Shown: positions 2,332 through 56,622, counted from the first letter of the stretch. The stretch: DNA of 64,000 nt from Cyanidioschyzon merolae (GCA_000091205.1 AP006501.2), one strand, 5' to 3'. Made by a program: numbers and translations. Notes: generated from the sequence alone by a model not told the origin.

Positions 2332-3456
2332 TCATGGATGAATAGTATCTTTGAATTCAAAGAACGAGTCATGCATGCGAATGAAAGAGTACTCCTCGCA
2401 TGACCCACAACACCCGTATAAATTAGGTTCTTTGTGAAAGATAGCGAACCCGGCGTGCATAAAACCTTGGAAAAACTCATCCACTTCTGGGATAGAGGCG
2501 ATACCCGCGTGCACTTCGATAAGGACTTGATTCACGTGCCGCAGCGCGTGCCAGGTTCTCAAGGCATATTGCTCTTCAGAGCTGAGTTCACGTTGGCTCC
2601 GTCCTTGGCGAAGGAGCTTGTCGGCTGCCCGGAACGCTCCCAAGAAAGAGGTGAACTCACCACCCTCGATATCGATCTTGAGCACCTCGACGACGTTTGG
2701 CAGCTCCAGGTGACCCAATCCAGACATGATCTCCGCCAGCGAATTGTTGCTCTCAGCCGGGCCAAGCGGCCGGCGAAAAAAACGAACGCGTTCCAGAAAG
2801 CTCTCGGAGTGCATCGCAGATGGTGGCGATGATGTTGGGTCAAAGACGAAAAAATCGCAGTCCGGCAAGCGTTCATGAAGCTTCGTTTCGAAACTGAAAT
2901 CGTTGTTGCTACCAAAACTGTACACAATGCAGCGATACGGGAGCCTGAGCTGCTCACGAAACAGCCGTCCCCGGTTCAGGATAGCAGGTGGGTCGCACAC
3001 CCATTTGCCACCGTCTCCGTTGTTACCGATCCGTTCCTCTAAGGCACAGCCGATATCCGGTTCCCAGTTATTGTAGAAAAAAACCGACGGGTTCGGTTCG
3101 AGGGTAACGGTCTGGCGCTTTCGCTGACGTCGTAACCGAATCCTCCGTTGGGCCCAGAGCGCGTCCGACTCGCACCAGAAGCCGAGCGACTCTTTCAGTG
3201 CTCGCGTGTCCTTCGAAGTCACTGGTAGGGTCCGGTCCCAAATCTCCGTCAGGGTTTTCGCGTTGCGCAAAGAGCTCCCACGACGAAGAGCCCTCGACAC
3301 GGAGCGAACGCAGCTGTCATCCACGGCGGGAAGATCCGCGCGCTGGACACCACTAGAGCGTCCGTTGAGAACACTAGTAGCGCGGTATATTACGATAAGA
3401 GCATAAATAAGAAAAGTCAAAGCCCCTGAAGCGATGCACGGTTTTCGCCACGTCAT
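2332..3456 (-). CDS. FkbM-family (Methyltransf_21) methyltransferase domain protein, likely a type II membrane protein
   Basis: The 454-aa ORF 2332..3696 contains YRCIVYSFGSNNDFSFE...DCDFFVFDP...VLKIDIEGGEF, typical of FkbM-type SAM methyltransferases. The first ~52 codons of the ORF are read-through from the Fanzor element terminus and share ELYEKK with the copy-B Fanzor C-terminus. The true start is probably the ATG at 3456, MTWRKPCIASGALTFLIYALIVIYRA, which looks like a signal anchor. Confidence 0.5.
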   Translation of the reverse strand: MTWRKPCIASGALTFLIYALIVIYRATSVLNGRSSGVQRADLPAVDDSCVRSVSRALRRGSSLRNAKTLTEIWDRTLPVTSKDTRALKESLGFWCESDALWAQRRIRLRRQRKRQTVTLEPNPSVFFYNNWEPDIGCALEERIGNNGDGGKWVCDPPAILNRGRLFREQLRLPYRCIVYSFGSNNDFSFETKLHERLPDCDFFVFDPTSSPPSAMHSESFLERVRFFRRPLGPAESNNSLAEIMSGLGHLELPNVVEVLKIDIEGGEFTSFLGAFRAADKLLRQGRSQRELSSEEQYALRTWHALRHVNQVLIEVHAGIASIPEVDEFFQGFMHAGFAIFHKEPNLYGCCGSCEEYSFIRMHDSFFEFKDTIHP

Positions 3457-3540
3457 GCCGGCCACTGAAAACAAACGTCTTTCAAAAGAAAAACGCTGCC
3501 GCCAACGGTGTACAGTAGTTACGGGAAACGCGCCGTAAGC

Positions 3541-6500
3541 AAATCGTCTCCAGCTGAGGTGCAGACGCATCCCCGTCTTTTTCGACCGTCCACCTACTAC
3601 GTCTTTCATTTTCTTCTCATATAATTCCACTTTGAGAGGTCGCCCCACAGGTTCTCTCGTGTCGAATCTGGAGGTCTTTTCTCCAGCACCGCACATCTCC
3701 TGATATTGATAGCGACATTAAAGTCTCGGTTCACAAACTCCATGCGTTTCTTGCCATCTTTGGTTGTGCTTACTAATGCAAGTAGCCCACGAACTTTCGC
3801 CCTCCTTTCCATTTGCTCCTCCGTCAGCGGTCCGTACTTTGCTATTTCGTCAGGGCTCCTCTGGCACTTTTCCATCTCGATCCTTTGAAGTGTACAACAC
3901 AGTTCATGGTGTGTATACGATGTTCGGAACTCATCTACAGGTATTGTAACTAACCTGTCTGCACACCCCTTGTACGTTCTTGTCGTTGGAGCTCGTGTAC
4001 ACTCTTTTTCAGACGCCTAGCGCCCTGCTCCGTATGCTACTACCAGCCTTTGACTTTCATCCTCTTTGAAGGCACTCAGCTGACTGAAAAAGTTCGCGAA
4101 CGCACACTGCTTGCCACCGTATAGATTCATACGCAATCGAGGCCACCGGGGCTTTGTATACTCTTTCCACAGTGCCTCCTAATGAGCAATACGAACTTTC
4201 ATGAACTCCCGAAAAGCTTGAAAATCTGCTCCGCGGCTCGTCACCTCGCTCAAAGCTTCCAGGTGCTCTTTCATTCCTGCATTGCATGTCTCGTTTTTCT
4301 TCCTCGTATTCATCACACCGGATTCTCGATAGTATCTCGCTCTCGGGAACCTCAAAAGACGCATGTCTTTCTGAATGAAGTTGCCGTCTGGACCATATTC
4401 CGCACGCCTGGGTACAGCGATGGCTGTGACATTCGTATTCCCAGGGTCCGCGCCAACGACAAAGTCGTTATACTTCCTTTTCTGTGTGGCACAATCCGCC
4501 TCCTTCTCATCTTCATACCTCGTCACGTCAACGACAACGTCGTCATCCTCTACCTCTTGCGTAGCAGGATCCGCGTCTTTGTTTTCCTCATCCTTCGTGA
4601 CGGGCGCAGCCGAGGACGGAACTGGCCGAGCTGCCTTCAACCGCCGATAGTCTACACACTAGGCTACTCCATCGGTTTCGATCATCCCCGTGAATACCTT
4701 TTGCTTGCTCGTTTTGAGACGTTTGAAATCGAAGATGTTCTTCCAGTACGTCTCCCTGGTTTCACGGGTGAACTCTCTTTTCCTAAAGTTGAACTCCGGA
4801 CTGATTTCCCTCATGATGCCGTAAAGGACGCCGGAGTCGATAGTCACATAATGTGACTTGATGTTGCACAACGGAACGACGTTGAAGCGCTTCCCCATTA
4901 GGAAAGCCTTCTGTCTCTCCCACTCTTCATTCTTGTCCTCACTCGGCTTCATCTCCGCCTTGCGTTCGAGTTCACGGTCCAGAAACACGAAATAGCGCAG
5001 GATGAGGCGATAATGTCTTTCCTTATCTTTTTTCAACTCTGATACCTTTGCTGCTTGATTCGCCAGCCCCAGTACCGCACGGTGCTCTTGTATAGGCGCA
5101 CGGATTACAGAAGCTTCATTCGTGCTCCTGTGTGACGTCTTCTCATCAACGAATTCGATCTCATCTTCATGCTTGCGATCGTTCGTGATGCCATCGATAA
5201 TCGCCCATATTCCTTTGCGAGAGATGCCCGGATAGAGTGCAAACACCGCGCGTATGATGAAACGTTGGAGCTTCATGGTCATATGGTTCCTCAAGTTCGT
5301 GACGTACGTTTTCATCGCCCCGTAGGTGTAAACACTCGAGTCACCCCTGTATCGAGCACCGCCGAAGCGGGATTCGGTGTGGTTTTCGTGGAGGGCATGC
5401 ACTAGCTCATTTTGCTTCCGCGTTTCCGCTGTACCAAGCATCAGATGGCGAATAAAAGTCTTGTCGAATAATTCTTTCCGAACTTCGACTGTTTAGATGT
5501 CCGTCACGTCGCGATACATCCTCTTCACCAAATGCATGAGTCCTGAAGAGGCCTTTACAATACTCAAGGAGTACGACTCGTCATGGGTTCTGATAGCCTC
5601 CCGCACTTTTTCCCTGTACGGATCCTTGATATGTCCAAGAATACAGACTTTCACTACTGTCTCGTCGTACTGTCGTCTTTCTTGCAGCCATTGGCGTCGG
5701 GCTTCCATCTTTTGCTTCTTGGCCCTCTCCAGTTCCTGTGGACTCGGCACTGTTTTTCGGTTTTTTTTCTGGAAACCGGCGACACACTGGGCCTCCGGCA
5801 TCCTCCACTTCCACTTACGTACATTTCCTTTTTATTTTTTTGAAAAAGGAACCCCCTTTGACTGCTTCTTCTATGAACCGCGAACAATGACTTGAATACA
5901 CTCTCTTGAGAGTTGAAACACAACGGAATCGAAAAAATATACTTTGCTACGGCTTCAGAGCGAATACTACTCGTACATTAGAGCAGAATGCTAACGATCA
6001 GGATCGCGTTTCACTTCAACGGCGAGAAGCACGTCATGTATCATGCCCGCCAGATATGGAGATACGCGCATCGACCATGCTACACAAAAAAGGAAGAGAA
6101 ACTAGCAGTTCAATTGCAACGAGATAACGATTTCTTCTCCCTCTATGATACATATTAAAAGGGAGGCAAGATTTCCATGTAGTCGAAACTTTACTTTCCG
6201 GGCGGAAGGCCCTGCGAGCCGGACGAGTCTGCTAGACCAGTCCTTCATGATCTTCCCAGTGCTCAGTGCTGTGGTGATATTCGAGCAACTCGACCGAAAC
6301 GCAGTTTATTCTCGGGCCGGGGACGGGTATGCTGCGTCTGGGCATCGCGCTGGTCGCAGTGGACTCCTACAAAGTCGTTTCGCGCCACACTACACTGTAC
6401 CTCTGTCTGCGCAGAGTGCATGCTCCCAGGATGATATTGAATCCCGACCACGTTTCAGGTGAAGCTTTCCTCGATCCGAATCCCTCAGTGGTATGGCAAA

Positions 6501-6588
6501 GCCGCTCTGCCTCTATGATGCATCGGCATCAGCCGTATAAGCGCTTTTGCTGGAGGTCAAAGCGGGCACTCGGCGCACTTTAGTACTC
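3541..6588 (-). mobile_element. Fanzor1-bearing mobile element, copy A, degenerate
   Basis: DNA and protein-level repeat of 26688..29645. The right 1.76 kb (4826..6588) is about 99% identical to copy B, and the remainder is about 80% identical. No TIRs or TSD are recognisable by eye. Confidence 0.75.
3606..5801 (-). pseudogene. Fanzor1 / TnpB-like RuvC nuclease, disrupted copy
   Basis: ORF fragments are 3606..3875 ([21 protein letters not shown], RuvC-III), 4179..4640 ([18 protein letters not shown], RuvC-I), 4659..5441 and 5493..5801. The 3876..4178 segment is frame-broken relative to copy B. A premature TAG follows ...IETDGVA, and the stop codon at the element end is lost, so the ORF reads into host sequence. 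Confidence 0.7.
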
Positions 6589-24792: not shown

Positions 24793-25659
24793 TGGATATG
24801 AGTATAATGGCCAACTCGAGTGGCGAGCTGTGCATCCATGTGGCGGTGAACGAGTCCCGAAACGGTCGCTTGCTGAATACAGTCTACCTGTGGTCGACTT
24901 GTGCGCTGTTTCGGGCGCTTCGCAGAGTAGTCTCTGCTTATGCGTGCTCTGTCGGTCCGCCAATGCGGCTCGCGTCGAAGAGGGTATACAGCTGCTGAAA
25001 ATGTTCACCACGGTCGGTGTTCAGAAGTCTCTGCTTGTGCGTGCTCTGTCGGTCCGCCAATGCGGCTCGCGTCGAAGAGGGTGTACAGCTATTGGAAATG
25101 CTCGCCTCGGTCGGTGTTCAAAGCATCTGCGAGGAGGCCCTGCTGCCGTCCCAAGCGCAACAAATGCCCCAGTTCCGATCGTAGGAGCCATCCCGTCGCA
25201 GGTGCGCTGGTTTCACGCTCATTGACTGTTTTGACGGCGACGCGCTGGCGTGCAGCACTTGGTGACCCATGGGACGCTTCCAGACATCCGCGGTTCCGTT
25301 CAGCGCTTGCCTTTACGCCGTCCTGGTTCAACGGGAACGTCAGTCATCTCGAAACGGCAGCGTGTACCTACTCTGGTTTTAGGCTTCACGAGCGTGGATG
25401 AGCGGCTCACTAGTCGCTGCCTTGTCCCTAATGCGTCAGCATTCCACTTCCACGTGTCGAGCGTAGCACGTTAGGGTCTCCCTATCGCTAACTCGAAGCT
25501 GGTCCCCGGAAGCAGCTCTCTCCAACAGAGCCGCATCCCAGCTGAGGAATCAGCGCAACAGTTACAGCGACCAGGCGTTCACAACTCACTGTGCTCTGGG
25601 GGACTGCAGAACACGCAAGTCCATGGAATACTCTGGTTAATGGCGTGCAATCAAGATCA

Positions 25660-26559: not shown

Positions 26560-26669
26560 TTGAAGCCATGAGCCCTTTTCGACCTTTCGTTGGTCTGTTC
26601 GGTAGTGGCAGCCGCCAAACTACGCTCTGATGTCGGGCGTCGCCACCAGCGGTGTAGAATAGTGGCGAG

Positions 26670-26880
26670 AAAGTCGACCCAGAAAAATCGTTTCTAGCTG
26701 TCGTGCAGACGCCTCCCCGTCCTTCTCGACCGGCCACGTACTACTGGTTCCATTTTTTTTCATATAGTTCCGCTTTGAGAGGTTGTCCAAGAAAAAGCTC
26801 TCGTGTCCACTCTGAAGGTCTTCTTTCCATCACCGCACATGTCCTTATATTGATAGCGGCATTAAAATCTCGGTTCACAA
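26670..26880 (-). ncRNA. Predicted omega RNA (guide RNA) locus of the Fanzor element. This is a positional inference only
   Basis: In TnpB and Fanzor systems the guide RNA overlaps the 3' end of the nuclease ORF and runs through the element end, with the guide from flanking DNA. Here the ORF stop at 26741 is 53 bp inside the element end at 26688. The 3' region is among the better-conserved parts between copies A and B. Confidence 0.2.
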
Positions 26881-29645
26881 ACTCCATACGTTTCTTGCCA
26901 TTGACTGTACTTAATAATGCGAGTAGTCCTCGAACATTCGCCCACCTTTCCATATGCTCCTCCGTCAGCGGTCCGTACTTTGCTATTTCGTCAGGGCTCC
27001 TCTGGCACTTTTCCATCTCGATCCTTTGAAGTGTACAACACAGTACATGGTGTGTATACGATGTTCGGAACTCATCTACAGGTACTATGACAAAACGTCG
27101 TGCGTACTCCTTATACGTTCTCGTCGTTGGAGCTGGTGTACACCCTTTTTGGGTCTTCGAGCGCGCTGCTCCGTACGCCACTACGAGCCTCTGACATTGA
27201 TCCTCTTTGAGGGCACTCAACCCATTGAAAAAATTCGCGAACGCCCGTTGCCTCCCACAATATAGATTCATACACAGACGAGCCCACCGAGGCTTTGTAT
27301 ATTCATTCCGCAGCGCATCCCAATGAGCAACACGAACATTCATGAATTTCAGAAAAGCTGTAAAGTCCGCTCCGCGGCTCGTCACCTCGCTCAAAGCTTC
27401 TACGTGATCCTTCATTCCTGCATTCCATGTCTCAATTTTCTTCGTTGCATTCATGATTCCCGATTCTCGATAGAATCTTGCTCTCGAGAACCTCAAAAGT
27501 CGCATGTCTTTCTGAAGCAAGTTACCGTCCTTACCATCTTCGGCACGCTTGGGTACAGCGATGGTTATGATATTTGTGTTTCCGGGGTCCGCGCCAACGA
27601 CAAAGTCTATCTCATGCACTTTCAGTGCCGCAGGATCCGCGTCTCTGTTTTCCTCATGCTTCGTCATGGGCGAAGCCGAAGGCACGATAGGAAGAAACGC
27701 CTCCAAGCGCTTGCAGTCTACACACAGGGCTACTCCATCGGTTTCGATCATCCCCGTGAATACCTTTTGCCTGCTAACTTTTGAGACGTCTGAAATCGAA
27801 GAGACTCTTCCAGTACGTGTCAGGGGCTTCGCCGGTGAACTCTGTCCGCCTTCCATCGAACTCCGGACAGATCCCCTTCATGATGCCATGAAGGACGCCG
27901 GAGTCGATAGTCACATAATGTGACTTGATGTTGCACAACGGAACGACGTTGAAGCGCTTCACCGCTAGGAAAGCCTTCTGTCTTTCCCACTCTTCACTCT
28001 TGTCCTCACTCGGCTTCATCTCCGCCTTGCGTTCGAGTTCACGGTCCAGAAACACGAAATAGCGCAGGATGAGGCGATAATGTCTTTCCTTATCTTTTTT
28101 CAACTCTGATACCTTTGCTGCTTGATTCGCCAGCCCCAGTACCGCACGGTGCTCTTGTATAGGCGCACGGATTACAGAAGCTTCATTCGTGCTCCTGTGT
28201 GACTTCTTCTCATCAACGAATTCGACCTCATCTTCATGCTTGCGATCGTTCGTGATGCCATCGATAATCGCCCATATTCCTTTGCGAGAGATGCCCGGAT
28301 AGAGTGCAAACACCGCGCGTATGATGAAACGTTGGAGCTTCATGGTCATATGGTTCCTCAAGTTCGTGACGTACGTTTTCATCGCCCCGTAGGTGTAAAC
28401 ACTCGAGTCACCCCTGTATCGAGCACCGCCGAAGCGGGATTCGGTGTGATTTTCGTGGAGGGCGTGCACTAGCTCATCTTGCTTCCGCGTTTCCGCTGTA
28501 CCAAGCATCAGATGGCGAATAAAAGTCTTGTCGAATAATTCTTTCCGAACTTCGACTGTTTAGATGTCCGTCACGTCGCGATACATCCTCTTCACCAAAT
28601 GCATGAGTCCTGAAGAGGCCTTTACAATACTCAAGGAGTACGACTCGTCATGGGTTCTGATAGCCTCCCGCACTTTTTCCCTGTACGGATCCTTGATATG
28701 TCCAAGAATACAGACTTTCACTTCTGTCTCGTCGTACTGTCGTCTTTCTTGCAGCCATTGGCGTCGGGCTTCCATCTTTTGCTTCTTGGCCCTCTCCAGT
28801 TCCTGTGGACTCGGCACTGTTTTTCGGTTTTTTTTTTCTGGAAACCGGCGACACACTGGGCCTCCGGCATCCTCCACTTCCACTTACGTACATTTCCTTT
28901 TTATTTTTTGAAAAAGGAACCCCCTTTGACTGCTTCTTCTATGAACCGCGAACAATGACTTGAATACACTCTCTTGAGAGTTGAAACACAACGGAATCGA
29001 AAAAATATACTTTGCTACGGCTTCAGAGCGAATACTACTCGTACATTAGAGCAGAATGCTAACGATCAGGATCGCGTTTCACTTCAACGGCGAGAAGCAC
29101 GTCATGTATCATGCCCGCCAGATATGGAGGTACGCGCATCGACCATGCTACACAAAAAAGGAAGAGGAACTAGCAGTTCAATTGCAACGAGATAACGATT
29201 TCTTCTCCCTCTATGATACATATTAAAAGGGAGGCAAGATTTCCATGTAGTCGAAACTTTACTTTCCGGGCGGAAGGCCCTGCGAGCCGGACGAGTCTGC
29301 TAGACCAGTCCTTCATGATCTTCCCAGTGCTCAGTGCTGTGGTGATATTCGAGCAACTCGACCGAAACGCAGTTTATTCTCGGGCCGGGGACGGGTATGC
29401 TGCGTCTGGGCATCGCGCTGGTCGCAGTGGACTCCTACAAAGTCGTTTCGCGCCACACTACACTGTACCTCTGTCTGCGCAGAGTGCATGCTCCCAGGAT
29501 GATATGGAATCCCGACCACGTTTCAGGTGAAGCTTTCCTCGATCCGAATCCCTCAGTGGTATGGCAAAGCCGCTCTGCCTCTATGATGCATCGGCATCAG
29601 CCGTATAAGCGCTTTTGCTGGAGGTCAAAGCGGGCACTCGGCGCC
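26688..29645 (-). mobile_element. Fanzor1-bearing mobile element, copy B, near intact
   Basis: ~2.96 kb repeat of copy A, inserted between the LRR gene and fabG. The Fanzor gene ends at 26741, 53 bp from the element terminus. There is ~750 bp of non-coding sequence 5' of the gene. No transposase ORF, TIRs or TSD were identified. Confidence 0.75.
26741..28883 (-). CDS. Fanzor1-like RNA-guided endonuclease candidate (eukaryotic TnpB homologue, RuvC-like)
   Basis: Three same-strand ORFs: 28883..28560 (basic, NLS-like, KKNRK...[12 protein letters not shown]), 28508..27774, and 27856..26741. Motifs present are [15 protein letters not shown] (RuvC-I Asp), [22 protein letters not shown]...C (TnpB motif flanking a degenerate zinc finger) and [19 protein letters not shown] (RuvC-III Asp). 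No canonical RuvC-II Glu lies upstream of the zinc finger, as in Fanzor1. The frame is broken by a 1-bp insertion near 27778 relative to copy A, and by an in-frame TAA at 28560. Confidence 0.75.
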
Positions 29646-29710
29646 CGATAGAATATACAAAAAGACTAGTACGTCCGAAAGGAGGTACCTTTCATGGAAC
29701 AAAAACGTAG

Positions 29711-30859
<1,149 letters not shown>

Positions 30860-33683: not shown

Positions 33684-35184
33684 TATCCACGTGTAGCTTT
33701 ACGTGCTATTTCGATACGCTTGACACGAGTTTCAGATAAGATATACGCACAACAGAGCGCGTGTGTTGGAGAATCCACGCGCAGTGGCGAGCGCACGTTT
33801 CACGTTCCCGGGAGCGTTCATGAATCGCTACGCACACAGGCGCCTCCCAGTGTTTTCGAACCTGTCGCTTGTTCGCGCTTTCTGTTCATCCAGGCACAGT
33901 TTGAGCCTGAGAGACTGCCCCACAAAGTTGGATTGCATCAGCTTATTAGGTCCCGTGTCTTCAACATCACATATCGTCTGATATTGATACAGTCTCGGTT
34001 GGTGAACTCCTCGCGTTTGCAGCCTCTGGTTGAACCTAACTTTGCAGGGACTCCTCGAAGTTGTGGCCTCGATGCCGTCCAAGTCTCGTTTGCATCCCGT
34101 TGGGCAAACGCTTTTCATCGTCTGTCTCCCCTCTTCTCCGTCTTGTTCTTCCTATTCGTTAATCGCTCTTCTTTATTCGATGGTCGGTGAGAGAGGATTT
34201 TTTCGGTTTTTTTCCAGCAGCCGGCGATGGCATCCCTGCGGGATCTCCGACTACCACGTCCATGCTTCTCCCCTGGATTCTTTTTCTTCAAATGAGCGCA
34301 CTTCAAATGCATCAGCTACAAACCGCGAACATGCATTCGATGACAAGCACCTGGGTGTGAAACACAACTGAGATGAAAGACCACAAGGAGTATGCTCCTC
34401 ATTTGGCAATAGAGAGCTTGCCTTGGAACGCGAGTTGTCCCCGCAACGCCGTTCGTATTACCTGCCGTGTTGGGCTTACTGTTGAACGAGGCTTTTGTGC
34501 ATTCGTTGCGCAACTCGCGAGTGAGCAAACGCTGTCTAGCTGCCCGCTGCTATGACGCTGGTTTGGAGCTCGCTCACTCGTGCGATCAAGCAAGACCTAT
34601 CTCGGGGGAGAGTCTTGTGCACCAGGTGCGTCTCTGTAGCGGCGGACGAACGCAGCTGTGGAGAGAGCCTCGCGTGCTCTCCGAGGCGGGGTACACTCTG
34701 GACTATGGACAGGTGCCTCCGACGTTGCCGGGAGCGCAATCTTTTGGCCTCTTTTCGTGGGACGAGTGCCGCTGCATTGAAACATTCGCTCTCTCAGCTG
34801 TGGAAAGCGTGCGCACACCAGCGTTACAGCGGTACGCGTGTCGTCAAACGGAGCTGCAGCTGCGGTGTGGACTACCCGGACGAGCGGCCTACCACTGACG
34901 TGCAGCACGCGAGCACCACAGAAACTTTGCAGTTGGCGGAGACAACAAGGCATGGGACTGGCGCATGTGCGGCTCTGGTGCACCAGCGAATACCGCCATA
35001 CGAAGCTAGTTATTCGGCATTGGCGGCCAGGTATGCCGAGCGGGCTCCTACTCTAGGCAGCGACTTGACGCCGGCAACTCGAGTGCTCCAGTTTCGATCA
35101 GCGCGTAAGCATGACCGGCGGTTAGAAACGCGACGTTACCTGGAGCACTTTACCAGGGGCTTTGCAGATGCACGCGTTTCTCCT

Positions 35185-40544: not shown

Positions 40545-41255
40545 GTACGCTGATGAAGCGGGGAACTTGGCGACTGAGACAAAGTCTTCAACGTAGAAGC
40601 CTCATGGTGCAAGGATCGGGTGTATAAAGGTACGAGATACTGCGAACTTGGCGACTGAGGCACAGTCTTCAACGTAGAAGCCTCATGGTGCAAGGATCGG
40701 GTGTATAGAGGTACGAGATACTGCGAACTTGGCGACTGAGGCACAGTCTTCAACGTAGAAGCCTCATGGTGCAAGGGTCGGGTGTATAGAGGTACGAGAT
40801 ACTGCGAACTTGGCGACTGAGGCACAGTCTTCAACGAAGAAGCCTCATGGTGCAAGGATCGGGTGTATAAAGGTACGAGATACTGCGAACTTGGCGACTG
40901 AGGCACAGTCTTCAACGAAGAAGCCTCATGGTGCAAGGATCGGGTGTATAAAGGTACGAGATACTGCGAACTTGGTGACTGAGACACAGTCTTCAACGAA
41001 GAAGCCTCATGGTGCAAGGATCGGGTGTATAAAGGTACGAGATACTGCGAACTTGGCGACTGAGACAAAGTCTTCAACGTAGAAGCCTCATGGTGCAAGG
41101 ATCGGGTGTATAGAGGTACGAGATACTGCGAACTTGGCGACTGAGGCACAGTCTTCAACGAAGAAGCCTCATGGTGCAAGGATCGGGTGTATAAAGGTAC
41201 GAGATACTGCGAACTTGGCGACTGAGACAAAGTCTTCAACGTAGAAGCCTCATGG
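40545..41255. repeat. 81-bp minisatellite, about 8.7 tandem copies
   Basis: Unit gaacttggcgactgag(a/g)ca(a/c)agtcttcaacg(t/a)agaagcctcatggtgcaaggatcgggtgtata(a/g)aggtacgagatactgc recurs every 81 bp from 40563. The period is divisible by 3, which yields the artefactual 306-aa repeat ORF 40319..41239. Confidence 0.9.
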
Positions 41256-41602
41256 TATATGCATGATATCTAAATCCAACGATACATAAACTAGACCCGC
41301 GCACGCAAACTGCTTGTACGTGACTGTTGCCCCCGGAGAGCAACTGCATACCCTGCCGAGTCCTCGTTGACTTGAAGCAGCGAAAGCGACTGCTTTCGCT
41401 ACTTCCATACCACATCGCTACAGCGCTATCCGCTCGTGAACGCTTTCCGTATGCACCACCGCTCTTGCTCGGGTTGTTCCCGGTACTGCTTCACCTAGAG
41501 CAGGTCCAGTGCACGCACGTGTTTGTTGCCGCAAACTTGTTTACGTTCTTGTTGGTTCTCATGTTCCACATCATGGGTTTTCTTCTGGGCTACCACTTTC
41601 GT

Positions 41603-53816: not shown

Positions 53817-54883
53817 GGTGACGACTGGAGCGATCATTCGCTGCCGTCGCTGCTGCAGCTGATTTTTTACCTCTGACGAGGGGTTTCTATTGTATTTGGA
53901 ATCGCGTATTGCGGGATGGATATTACGATTTATGTAAGTGTTCATCAGGATGCTGAACTTCAAGTTCCATGACAGATACTTCCTTGCGGATGTACTGGTC
54001 GTTTCGGACGTTCTATCATGAGTCTAGTGCCTGCAGTACGCATACGCGTTAGCGCCGAGACCGCTGGAGCGGATATTTCATAGAGCCCGAACGGCTTTGC
54101 CATACGACTGGGGCGGGGGGTGTTGGCCCAAGGCATGATTCACTGGACATCGGGGTCGGAGCGTAGAATCATTCTGGGAGCGTGCAAGCTGTGCAGACGC
54201 ACTGCCTGTGGCAGCAGCGCGAAGCGATATACAAGGAGTACACTGCGACCAGGGCGATGCCCAGACGCTGGCTAACTGCTCGAAATCCCAGAATAAGCGG
54301 CGTTTCTGACGAGTTGCCCAGGTCTCAATAAAGCTCCTGCAACTGGGGGCCTGAAGCACAAGCCTGGCAGGCTCGTGCGACTCGCGGGACCTTACGTCCA
54401 GAAGGTAAACTCTCGACGATACGGAAACCTTTGCCCCCTTTTATCGTTTGTCGTAGAGGGGCAAAGAAAATGTTATCTCGCTACTAGTTTGTAACTAGTC
54501 TCTGTCCTTTTGGGTATATCATGCGCTCGATACGCGCACCTCCATATCTGGCAGTCACAAGACCTGACGTGTATCGCGCCGATGAAGGGAAACGCGATCC
54601 TGATCATGAGCGTGTAGCTCCAACGTACAGGACGCATTTGCGTTGAGGTCATGCGAAAGTATAGTATTTCATCCCAGATGAGTTTCGACCCTCAATGGAG
54701 TGTATTCAAGTGATTTTTCGCGGTTTATAGTAGTAGCGTTCAAAGAGCATTCTTTTCCAAAAACAAAAAATCCAAGGGACAGGTATCGACCTGGATGTTG
54801 GGAATCCTTAAGGGCCATCATCGTCGAATTCGACGAAGAATAACCGAAGAAGAAATCCTCTTTTCGTCGACTATCGAGCGAAC

Positions 54884-55138
54884 ATGAGCGAACGATGCGG
54901 ACGAAGAAGACCGAGAATGGATGTAGGCGAGAAAGTGTGTGCCCGACGAGACGATGACGAGACTGTAGTGGCACAGAGGGCGCGGGTTCTGGGAATCCTT
55001 GGAAAATTGCGTTCAGCCAGAGGCAATAAACGTATGGTGCTCGTGAACCGAGACTTTAACGCCGTCATCAATATCAGACGATGGGCGGTGCTGAAGACGA
55101 GACACGAGGAGCTTACGCGATCTAGCTTTGTGGAGTAG
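54884..55138 (+). pseudogene. Solo relic of Fanzor/TnpB C-terminus (RuvC-III region)
   Basis: ETVVAQRARVLGILGKLRSARGNKRMVLVNRDFNAVINIRRWAVLKTRHEEL aligns with copy [47 protein letters not shown]. The antisense reading TALKSRFTSTIRLLP matches antisense ORFs in copies A and B. No upstream nuclease domains remain. Confidence 0.6.
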
Positions 55139-56125
55139 CCTCTCATGGGCGATGTGTACAGGGAGAAGCTGAAACCGATAGCAGGTCGCCTGTGTAGATA
55201 GGCTGGGAGGCGTCTGCACGTGGGTGTCAGTTTACGATCTCGAGGCGACGCCTCCAGTGGTGCGGAAAGGCCGTTCTGTCTGCGCTAATGCGAGACGCGT
55301 GGTGGTTACCTGGGCCCTGCTTTTCCCTTATAGGCTATTACGTGAGCCCTTGGGCACCTTCAGCACAGAAACGTTTCCAGTCTGCAACGTGGCGGGATAA
55401 GCGAGTCGAGCTCGGAGCGCTCCGTGTACAATCACGCTGTCTCCTTTCGCAAGTTACGATGCGTACCTGTTTCGCGGCTGGATTTTTGGCACCAAAAGCG
55501 CTGTAGGTACCGGGTTCAGGTACAGTTCCATCTCGCCAGATGCTGTTGGTGTCGAAGGATCGGCTTCAGGAGGAGGTAAGCGTCCGGCATTGCGTACCAA
55601 GAGGTCTGCGACGAGGCGTTCATCGCGCAGTTCGTCGCATCAGCAGGCGGGCACTGCTTGTAATCGACTGCCTGAGCGCTTCATTGAGACGATTCATAAA
55701 AGCCATCGTCGCCTTCAGATATCACTCTGAGAACTGTTTGGACGCTGCAGAACGATTCTCGGGATGCGCGAAACATGCCCAGAGTCGGCACCTGGCATGG
55801 GGTAGGGTCCTGGTCTGTTGTGGTGTAGGATCCTTAAATCTAACCAGGTTTCTGGCGATGCGCATCCGCTTCTGATGACCACGAAAGAGGCCTCGTTCGC
55901 TTCACTAGCGCATGTGTGTGTTCGGCAAGTCCCAGTCAAAATGCCCAACAGGTATAGAGGCTTGCTCATTCCAAAGGAACAGCGGTTATCGAGTCTACAG
56001 TGGGCGCTCGCGCCACCGCGGGCTCATTCTCACACGCTCACCGCAGAGGTTCGTTTCCTAACGAGCAACTCGCGCGTCTGCAGGCGCATTCTCCAACGAG
56101 ATGCCGACCCTGAAAACGTATATTT

Positions 56126-56345
56126 CGCTGTATTCCAAGTCTGGAATCATCCGAGGCACTAGATGCGAAGGCAGCCGGTTTCGGGAAGTGCTCGTCCCAG
56201 TCTGATACCGGAAATCCCGCTGTATTCCAGGTCTGGAATCATCCGAGGCACTAGATGCGAAGGCATCCGGTTTCGGGAAGTGGTAGTGCCTCCATCCGAT
56301 CGTATATCTCGTTGTACCCCAGGTCTGTAATCATCCAGATCACGA
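56126..56345. repeat. 92-bp tandem repeat, ~2.4 copies
   Basis: cgctgtattcca(a/g)gtctggaatcatccgaggcactagatgcgaaggca(g/t)ccggtttcgggaagtg repeats at 56126 and 56218, with a degenerate third partial unit at 56310. Confidence 0.7.
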
Positions 56346-56622
56346 CATACATAGGCATTATGTGTCGGGTACTCGACATTCCGCCTTGCTCGTGCTTCGC
56401 GCTGGCATACGATACAAATGAAGCACAGCCGCAGTTGCGCAGTCGCGGTTGCCAGGCCCGCGTTGCGTACGGCTGCGATGCCCGCCGGAGGACACAGCCT
56501 TGTGCTACGCTGGGCTCGTGCGGCGTTGCGCCCGTATACTGTTGGGCTCCGTTGGAGACGGTATGTCGGTTAGGTGGAAGCGGCTTCAAGCACAGCTCGG
56601 TTTCCTGTCTAGTGGACTGCGC

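What the first reader, a model, noticed from the sequence alone, without database searches (positions are those of the whole stretch)
27770..28565. Fanzor ORF interrupted by a 1-bp indel and a conserved in-frame TAA. Possible tiny intron or very recent inactivation
Relative to copy A (…gctcgtttt…), copy B has one extra base at about 27778 (…gctaactttt…). This shifts the N-terminal 244-aa frame into the C-terminal 371-aa frame. Copy A shows that the two parts are one continuous frame (…[22 protein letters not shown]). The basic N-terminal ORF (28883..28560) is in the same frame as the next ORF and is separated from it only by a single TAA at 28560-28562. Both copies share this TAA. A 48-nt GT..AG segment (gtgacggac…cgacaag, 28539..28586 on the minus strand) would remove the stop in frame.
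Basis: seen in the sequence. Interest (0 to 1): 0.5.

Follow-up and report, generated by a model that had tools for sequence, protein, structure and literature searches.

The report
Decayed Fanzor transposon copy, no intron

Summary
Copy B (window ~29650-26612, minus strand) carries an in-frame TAA (28560-28562) and a 1-bp insertion (~27778-27782) that splits one Fanzor reading frame. Copy A (~6582-3470) shares the TAA.

The window is Cyanidioschyzon merolae 10D. The element is the CMe-1A Fanzor1 family described by Bao & Jurka in 2013. A family profile matches solved Fanzor1 structures (E=2.5e-21), and so does an AlphaFold model (Foldseek E=5e-17).

The intron idea is refuted. The 48-nt GT..AG segment is really at 28574-28527. 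It has exactly that length in 64 of 72 copies, and 55 of those are open and encode V[TA]HMETVEIPDEFFDK. Every copy outside the A/B lineage has a sense codon, mostly GAA, where B has TAA.

The +1 is unique to B among 83 aligned copies. It is absent from the orthologous copy in a 99.25%-identical strain.

Copy A is more decayed still.

A and B share the TAA because their 5' ~1.7 kb has been homogenised by ectopic gene conversion. This is ordinary transposon decay in a known family, so interest is low.

The parts
26612..29650 (-). Copy B of the CMe-1A Fanzor1 element, a pseudogene. The 5' limit is fuzzy (29650-29800). The 3' limit is about 26612.
   Evidence: A/B alignment. Family-wide conservation collapses at ~26612. 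5' profile. Family identity from Bao & Jurka 2013.
28884..28889 (-). Lost start. The family consensus ATG-AAA reads ACG-TAA here.
   Evidence: DNA alignments with L001/L002 and with about 60 copies. Shared only by B, A, L017 and L033.
28828..28837 (-). A10 run inside the basic N-terminal coding region. Its length varies widely between copies, so it is a frameshift hot spot.
   Evidence: alignment. B has 10 A, A has 8, L017 and L083 have 9.
28560..28883 (-). N-terminal 107-codon ORF. It is a genuine part of the Fanzor protein, not a 5' leader.
   Evidence: Homologous, in frame, to the N-termini of P0001, P0008, P0024, P0026 and P0032. Modelled at pLDDT >90.
28560..28562 (-). In-frame TAA, a nonsense substitution derived from GAA (Glu).
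   Evidence: Of about 69 aligned copies covering the site, only B, A, L017 and L033 have TAA. About 58 have GAA; the rest have AAA, CAA, GCA or GGA. Proteins read E or K there.
28527..28574 (-). The 48-nt GT..AG segment proposed as an intron. It is coding sequence ([15 protein letters not shown]).
   Evidence: It is 48 nt in 64 of 72 copies, and 55 of those are open with consensus V[TA]HMETVEIPDEFFDK. Diversity by codon position is 0.18/0.10/0.20.
27774..28508 (-). Middle 244-codon ORF, the helical N-terminal half of Fanzor1. It ends at a TAG created by the frameshift.
27778..27782 (-). 1-bp insertion (CTCAAA[A]GT), private to the 10D allele of copy B.
   Evidence: The only one of 83 aligned copies with the extra base. 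The orthologous copy in L083 lacks it and has a 588-aa ORF. It lies in a 20-bp patch where the other strain's allele equals copy A.
26741..27856 (-). C-terminal 371-codon ORF, carrying the TDG strand motif that aligns with solved Fanzor1 and the RuvC domain. Catalytic D (27587-27589), E (27071-27073) and D (26867-26869) are retained.
   Evidence: GADPGN, VDEFRT and [10 protein letters not shown] motifs. D, E and D are invariant or near-invariant in alignment A3. Aligned to the RuvC motifs of solved Fanzor1.
26753..26760 (-). 1-bp deletion in an A-run. The conserved basic C-terminal tail (..[19 protein letters not shown]) is out of frame.
   Evidence: Shared by the L083 allele.
26612..26645 (-). 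3' terminus of the element. The terminal hairpin conserved in most copies is degenerate in B.
3470..6582 (-). Copy A of the same family, more decayed. It has TAA at 5493-5495, three extra TAGs, a -2 in the A-run, a C-terminal frameshift and a 75-bp extra acidic repeat.
53889..55216 (+). Copy C, an internally deleted derivative. It keeps the 5' leader (~70% identical to A and B) plus the last ~90 codons of Fanzor.

Best explanation
Window 29650-26612 (minus strand) is a pseudogenised copy of CMe-1A. CMe-1A is the ~3-kb Fanzor1-encoding transposable element of Cyanidioschyzon merolae, which lacks terminal inverted repeats (TIRs).

The intact family protein is about 700 aa. It is an RNA-guided RuvC nuclease of the TnpB/Fanzor1 type, and it is read as one uninterrupted exon starting MKKQVDDPGGP.

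Copy B has been inactivated by ordinary mutations:
- ATG changed to ACG at the start.
- AAA changed to TAA at codon 2.
- GAA changed to TAA at codon 108 (28560-28562).
- A 1-bp insertion at 27778-27782.
- A 1-bp deletion in an A-run at 26753-26760.
- Loss of the 3' terminal hairpin.

The TAA is shared with copy A, 23 kb away, because the 5' ~1.7 kb of the two copies has been homogenised by ectopic gene conversion. It is not shared because the stop is functional.

Shown: the lesions and their polarity, the family identity, and the conversion signature. Inferred: that no protein is made, and the direction and timing of individual conversion events.
For: Organism: 9 of 10 window ORFs are exact matches to C. 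merolae 10D proteins.

Family: Bao & Jurka 2013 describe about 150 copies of CMe-1A, ~80% identical to the consensus, ~3 kb, no TIRs. Profile against PDB: Fanzor1 at E=2.5e-21, 5.6e-13 and 1.9e-8. AF2 model pLDDT 82.6, with the top seven Foldseek hits all Fanzor1. RuvC D/E/D invariant or near-invariant.

Lesion polarity: in an alignment of 82 metagenomic copies plus A and B, TAA occurs only in B, A, L017 and L033, and all other copies have a sense codon, mostly GAA. The +1 is only in B. ATG-AAA in most copies reads ACG-TAA in the A/B lineage. B's -1 is private to it; three other copies have a separate deletion in the same run.

The 48-nt segment is coding in 55 of 64 full-length copies.

Standard genetic code: annotated host genes in the window end in TAA (2), TAG (4) and TGA (3).

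Orthologous locus L083 is 99.25% identical. It has the TAA, the start loss and the -1, but not the +1, and it carries a 588-aa ORF.

Gene conversion:
- A and B are 98-100% identical over 29650-28058 and then ~80% identical, with 100% islands.
- In the other strain A and B are 100% identical in every 100-bp window across ~1.4 kb.
- Differences between the two B alleles are clustered, and at all but one of the roughly 55 sites inside the element one allele equals copy A.
- Site 28265 differs between strains but is the same in A and B within each strain.

Family-wide decay: all 84 copies examined have at least one stop or frameshift.
Against: There are no expression data, so a truncated product starting at Met125 cannot be excluded. 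That ORF is 588 aa in the other strain.

The +1 could not be confirmed in an independent read set or assembly.

Bao & Jurka state that some CMe-1A copies are intact. None of my 84 sampled copies was, so my sample says nothing about whether the family is still active.

The direction of conversion at the +1 patch is unresolved. The frameshift may be new in 10D, or it may be old and erased in the other strain.
Confidence: 0.92

Rival explanations
1. A 48-nt GT..AG mini-intron (28574-28527) is spliced out, which removes the TAA and joins the basic N-terminal ORF to the rest of Fanzor.
For: The segment starts with GT, ends with AG, is a multiple of three and contains the stop.
Against: The same 48 nt are present and open in 55 of 64 full-length paralogous copies and encode a conserved peptide.

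GT and AG are the Val and Lys codons of that peptide.

Removal would delete 16 residues modelled at pLDDT 94-96.

The TAA is a lineage-specific GAA-to-TAA change.

C. merolae has only 27 introns in its genome (PMC4829280).

The same copy also lacks its start codon and has another TAA at codon 2, which splicing would not fix.
Confidence: 0.01
2. The interruptions are decoded rather than inactivating, through TAA readthrough or reassignment and a programmed +1 ribosomal frameshift at the A-run.
For: Both frame breaks in B (27778-27782 and 26753-26760) lie in A-runs, and the N-terminal A-run varies in length in many copies.
Against: Host genes in the same window terminate with TAA, TAG and TGA.

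The TAA occurs only in the A/B lineage, and the +1 in one allele of one copy out of 83. A programmed signal would be conserved across the family.

Stops in other copies are scattered at different positions.
Confidence: 0.01
3. The 1-bp insertion at 27778-27782 is a sequencing or assembly error in the reference, so that lesion does not exist in the organism.
For: It sits in a short A-run. The orthologous allele in a 99.25%-identical strain has no extra base. No independent record of the resulting ORFs was found.
Against: The run is only four A's. Four substitutions in the same 20-bp patch also distinguish the two alleles, so this is a real sequence difference rather than a homopolymer miscall. 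From my own knowledge, the 10D genome is a finished assembly. Even if the insertion were an error, the copy would still lack a start codon and carry two TAAs and the C-terminal -1.
Confidence: 0.06
4. An N-terminally truncated Fanzor, starting at Met125 of the family protein (28508), is still expressed and useful, so the TAA is tolerated.
For: In the related strain the ORF from this Met runs for 588 aa and keeps the RuvC triad. The catalytic residues are intact in B too.
Against: The missing ~124 residues are conserved across the family and are predicted to be structured.

The strains differ by only 0.75%, so an ORF surviving that long is expected by chance.

B in 10D has the +1, the C-terminal -1 and a degraded 3' hairpin.
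Confidence: 0.03

Closest known systems
CMe-1A Fanzor1 element of Cyanidioschyzon merolae (Bao & Jurka 2013, Mobile DNA 4:12)
   Same: Same organism, ~3-kb length, no TIRs, many diverged copies (~80% to consensus), encodes one Fanzor1 protein. The 5' leader is shared with shorter non-autonomous derivatives.
   Different: Nothing essential: copies A and B are individual decayed members. Added here are the exact lesions, a sharper 3' end with a terminal hairpin, and evidence for gene conversion between copies.
Structurally solved Fanzor1 nucleases (SpuFz1 8GKH/9CEU-9CEZ, PpFz1 9CF0-3, GtFz1 9CER)
   Same: Profile match and fold match across the TDG strand motif and the RuvC domain, with the RuvC D/E/D motifs aligned.
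   Different: Only 12-15% sequence identity. The CMe-1 proteins carry a variable acidic 25-aa tandem repeat before RuvC-I (disordered in the model), and the motif where the zinc ribbon is expected has two His and two Cys. ωRNA (the guide RNA) and nuclease activity are untested for this family.
Bacterial TnpB (IS200/IS605, IS607) and Cas12f
   Same: RuvC fold and a sub-threshold match to the Cas12f1-like TNB domain in several family members. TnpB and Cas12 structures appear as weak Foldseek hits.
   Different: Much larger N-terminal helical half. Eukaryotic nuclear element with a basic N-terminal stretch. No significant direct sequence match.
Concerted evolution of dispersed repeats by ectopic gene conversion
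   Same: Mosaic identity tracts, clustered allelic differences that match the paralogue, and strain-specific variants shared by both paralogues.
   Different: Seen here for only two copies, 23 kb apart, in two strains. No genome-wide test was done.

Membership tests
Fanzor1 (eukaryotic TnpB-like RNA-guided nuclease) | Significant sequence-profile similarity to experimentally characterised Fanzor1 proteins | tested here: met
   Profile of A3 against PDB: PpFz1 E=2.5e-21, SpuFz1 5.6e-13, GtFz1 1.9e-8. A single sequence and a shallow profile found nothing.
Fanzor1 (eukaryotic TnpB-like RNA-guided nuclease) | Fanzor1 fold (helical N-terminal half plus RuvC) | tested here: met
   AF2 model of relative P0001: pLDDT 82.6, pTM 0.81. 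Foldseek top seven hits are all Fanzor1, E=5e-17 to 7e-14, TM up to 0.73. The modelled protein is a 61-69% identical paralogue, not the broken copy B itself.
Fanzor1 (eukaryotic TnpB-like RNA-guided nuclease) | RuvC catalytic D...E...D in the conserved motifs | tested here: met
   D484 and E656 are invariant and D725 is at least 90% conserved in 77 diverse members. Copy B keeps GADPGN, VDEFRT and [10 protein letters not shown].
Fanzor1 (eukaryotic TnpB-like RNA-guided nuclease) | C4 zinc ribbon (OrfB_Zn_ribbon / TNB) between RuvC-II and RuvC-III (Bao & Jurka motif) | tested here: inconclusive
   Only sub-threshold Pfam PF07282 hits, E=0.002-0.11. The region reads HHELGCTLQRVEMEKCQR in the family, with two His and two Cys rather than a clear CxxC...CxxC.
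Fanzor1 (eukaryotic TnpB-like RNA-guided nuclease) | An ωRNA encoded at the 3' end of the element that guides DNA cleavage | not testable with these tools
   About 70-130 nt downstream of the ORF is conserved, ending in a 10-12 bp terminal hairpin in most copies. That is compatible with an ωRNA scaffold, but there are no RNA or activity data. The hairpin is degraded in copy B.
CMe-1A transposable element family | C. merolae genome, ~3 kb, no TIRs, multicopy, single Fanzor1 ORF | tested here: met
   Organism. Length 29650/29800 to 26612. No terminal inverted repeats. More than 460 related stretches in Cyanidioschyzon-containing metagenomes. Description in PMC3627910. I could not compare with the Repbase consensus itself.
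   Exactly 48 nt in 64 of 72 copies, 55 of them open and encoding a conserved peptide. Second codon positions are the least variable.
   No transcriptome data are available here.
Processed or decayed pseudogene of a transposon ORF | Disabling mutations at positions that are sense and in frame in paralogues | tested here: met
   Start loss, two TAAs, +1 and -1, each derived relative to the family.

The most novel reading that the evidence does not exclude
Ectopic gene conversion between dispersed CMe-1A copies is frequent and ongoing in Cyanidioschyzon. It both spreads inactivating lesions (the shared TAA) and erases them: the +1 is absent from the other strain's allele exactly where that allele has become copy-A-like. 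Such copy-to-copy repair could explain how an old, ~80%-diverged Fanzor1 family keeps some intact ORFs, which is the puzzle Bao & Jurka raised.
Probability: 0.3. Interest if true: 0.35.

Novelty: already known. Interest (0 to 1): 0.1.

Why it matters
It matters little in itself. It settles that this locus is a dead copy of a published transposon family, and that no unusual splicing or recoding needs to be invoked in an organism famous for having only 27 introns.

Two by-products may help anyone studying Fanzor biology in C. merolae. First, the 3' boundary of CMe-1A can be placed to within a few bases, and it ends in a conserved hairpin. This is a starting point for finding the ωRNA and target site that the original description could not define. 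Second, two copies 23 kb apart show clear concerted evolution. That should be taken into account when dating copies, or when inferring selection from their intactness.

Tried and rejected
- Pfam and NCBIfam scans of the three ORFs gave nothing above threshold.
- Searches of a single sequence and of a shallow profile against PDB sequences found nothing. Only a profile of diverse representatives worked.
- The first AlphaFold run, on the shallow 45-sequence alignment, failed with pLDDT 40.
A smaller alignment worked.
- A search for terminal inverted repeats or target-site duplications around copy B found nothing convincing.
- RNAalifold on the last 200 nt of 47 copies returned no consensus structure. 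Only the terminal hairpin is seen copy by copy, and its two sequence types pair in different registers, so I do not claim clean covariation.
- Exact-sequence look-ups of the 244-, 260- and 371-aa ORFs and of FabG found no independent assemblies, so the +1 could not be verified independently.
- The 5' end of the element could not be placed sharply.
- I considered RIP-like mutation as the source of the stops. I dropped it because the A/B differences in the diverged half include many transversions.

Full report
**What is in the sequence**

On the minus strand of 26741-28883 there are three ORFs, of 107, 244 and 371 codons. The first two share a frame and are separated by TAA at 28562-28560. The third is shifted by one base and overlaps the second around 27774-27856.

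A second copy of the same ~3-kb sequence lies at ~6582-3470 on the same strand. It has the same TAA (5493-5495), and it reads through the site of B's shift as ...[22 protein letters not shown].

Three corrections apply:
- The quoted 48-nt gtgacggac...cgacaag segment lies at 28574-28527, 12 nt from the coordinates given.
- Copy A is not intact. It has three more in-frame TAGs, a 2-bp deletion in the N-terminal A-run, a 75-bp extra repeat and a C-terminal frameshift.
- Copy B has additional lesions, described below.

**Where the window comes from, and what the element is**

Nine of ten long ORFs in the window are exact matches to annotated proteins of Cyanidioschyzon merolae strain 10D, on a 1,282,939-bp chromosome.

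Bao & Jurka (2013, PMC3627910) described one Fanzor1 family in this alga, CMe-1A. It has about 150 copies, each ~80% identical to the consensus. The consensus is ~3 kb with no terminal inverted repeats, and target-site duplications were undetermined. Its 5' 635 bp is shared with a non-autonomous element, and some copies are still intact. Copies A and B fit this description. I found no terminal inverted repeats.

I checked the Fanzor assignment independently:
- Direct Pfam, NCBIfam and PDB-sequence searches were uninformative.
- A search of 1.84 billion representative proteins found 1518 relatives.
- A profile of 77 diverse full-length relatives matched three solved Fanzor1 proteins, at E=2.5e-21, 5.6e-13 and 1.9e-8.
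- With that alignment, AlphaFold gave pLDDT 82.6 and pTM 0.81. The seven best Foldseek hits in the PDB were all Fanzor1, at E=5e-17 to 7e-14, followed weakly by Cas12 and TnpB.
- The RuvC D, E and D are invariant or near-invariant in the family and are retained in copy B.

**Is the TAA bridged by an intron?**

It is not.

Relatives that cover the site read straight through it. Proteins P0001, P0008 and P0026 have Glu there, and P0024 and P0032 have Lys, with conserved residues on both sides.

At the DNA level I aligned 82 related loci from metagenomes with A and B. TAA occurs only in B, A, L017 and L033. L017 and L033 are orthologues of copy A in environmental strains. About 58 other copies have GAA and the rest have AAA, CAA, GCA or GGA. 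So the stop is a single G-to-T change in one lineage.

The proposed intron has exactly that length, 48 nt, in 64 of 72 copies. Fifty-five of those are open and encode V[TA]HMETVEIPDEFFDK. Its GT and AG ends are the Val and Lys codons, and second codon positions vary least.

The 16 residues lie where the structural model has pLDDT 94-96. C. merolae is reported to have only 27 introns (PMC4829280).

Recoding is also unsupported. Annotated host genes in the window end in TAA, TAG and TGA.

**The frameshift**

The family reads CTC AAA GTG AGC (..LKVS..), or CTC AAA ACG AGC in copy A. Copy B reads CTCAAAAGTTAGC. It is the only one of 83 aligned copies with the extra base.

I recovered the syntenic region of a closely related strain, L083, which is 99.25% identical over 22 kb. 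Its copy B has no extra base and carries a 588-aa ORF that fuses the 244- and 371-codon pieces. It does have the TAA, the start-codon loss and the C-terminal -1.

So the +1 is polymorphic between near-identical strains, while the other lesions are older. I could not confirm the +1 in an independent data set. An assembly error is unlikely, because four substitutions accompany it in the same 20-bp patch. It remains formally possible.

- Most copies start ATG AAA AAG CAA GTC GAC GAT CCT GGA GG (MKKQVDDPGG). B, A and A's orthologues have ACG TAA at the first two codons.
- An A-run in the basic N-terminal region (28828-28837) varies widely in length between copies. It has 10 A in B, 8 in A and 9 in the other strain.
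- Near the 3' end, B lacks one base of an A-run (26753-26760). This puts the conserved basic tail out of frame.
- The element's 3' end can be placed at about 26612, where family-wide conservation collapses.
- In most copies the last ~30 nt form a 10-12 bp hairpin, in two sequence types. In B the hairpin is degraded.

**Why A and B share the TAA**

A and B are 98-100% identical from ~29650 to ~28058. Beyond that they are ~80% identical, with short islands of 100%. Their flanks are unrelated, so this is not a segmental duplication.

A four-way comparison used A and B from 10D, together with A and B from the environmental strain:
- In the other strain the two copies are 100% identical in every 100-bp window across ~1.4 kb.
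- The differences between the two B alleles are clustered: 22 in 26942-27040, 12 in 27897-27950 and 5 in 27771-27790. At all but one of the roughly 55 differing sites inside the element, one allele equals copy A.
- Position 28265 differs between strains but is the same in A and B within each strain.

This is the signature of repeated ectopic gene conversion. The shared TAA lies inside the homogenised tract, so its presence in both copies is not evidence of function.

At the +1 patch it is the other strain's allele that equals copy A. I therefore cannot tell whether 10D gained the frameshift or the other strain lost it by conversion.

**Family context**

By a tblastn count, every one of the 84 copies examined has at least one stop or frame change. 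Most have about two to six, and B has an ordinary number. The best-preserved sampled copy, L005, still has one internal stop. My sample is the 80 best hits to one relative. It does not contradict the published statement that some genomic copies are intact.

**Verdict**

'Fanzor' is confirmed, the intron is rejected, and 'recent inactivation' holds only for the +1. The locus is an ordinary decayed member of a published transposon family. The modestly new points are the gene conversion between copies and the sharper 3' end with its hairpin.

Noticed in passing
window 53889-55216 (+): Third, internally deleted copy of the element. About 880 bp of 5' leader (~70% identical to A and B) is joined to the last ~90 codons of Fanzor. 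This suggests both ends are needed in cis, and it recalls the non-autonomous TE-N2_CMe of Bao & Jurka.
   Followed up: partly
window 33908-34381 (-): A further ~470-bp fragment, 66% identical to part of copy C (54664-55145). Probably another decayed piece of the family.
   Followed up: no
window 26612-26645 and 3472-3519; loci L001-L082: The element ends in a 10-12 bp terminal hairpin right at the point where copies stop being alignable. It has two sequence types (GCGUCGUUCGA-CUU-UCGAACGGCGU and AACGUUUUUC-UUUU-GAAAGACGUU). It is a candidate for the last stem of an ωRNA scaffold or for a transposition signal. It is kept in A and lost in B.
   Followed up: partly
window 28828-28837 (and 5760-5767 in copy A): The A-run inside the basic N-terminal coding region varies widely in length among copies and even between near-identical strains. 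It is a frameshift hot spot that breaks the ORF in many copies.
   Followed up: partly
window 4470-4545 versus 27612; proteins P0001, P0014, P0042: An acidic ~25-aa tandem repeat (..[25 protein letters not shown]..) sits between the TDG strands and RuvC-I. Its copy number varies from about 1 to 5 between copies. It is disordered in the AlphaFold model (residues 381-469, pLDDT <50).
   Followed up: no
window 40563-41256: 81-bp tandem repeat (~8.5 units, ~96% identical) within an ORF. The related strain (L083) has five fewer units (405 bp).
   Followed up: partly
window 29150-28890: The ~260 nt just upstream of the family start codon is more conserved across copies (0.75-0.86 column identity) than the rest of the 5' leader. 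It may be a promoter or 5' UTR, or another cis element.
   Followed up: no
window 2332-3696 (-): A 454-codon ORF begins inside the 3' end of copy A, in the frame of the Fanzor C-terminal tail, and runs on into the neighbouring host gene. The real gene probably starts at a later ATG.
   Followed up: no
window 24926-25130 and 56110-56369: Two short local direct duplications: 109 bp twice at 89% identity, and ~168 bp twice at 78%. Neither is related to the Fanzor element.
   Followed up: no
window 29213-29530 (+) and 6145-6462 (+): A 105-codon ORF on the opposite strand within the 5' leader, nearly identical in A and B (one amino-acid difference). I did not check whether it is conserved as coding in diverged copies.
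   Followed up: no
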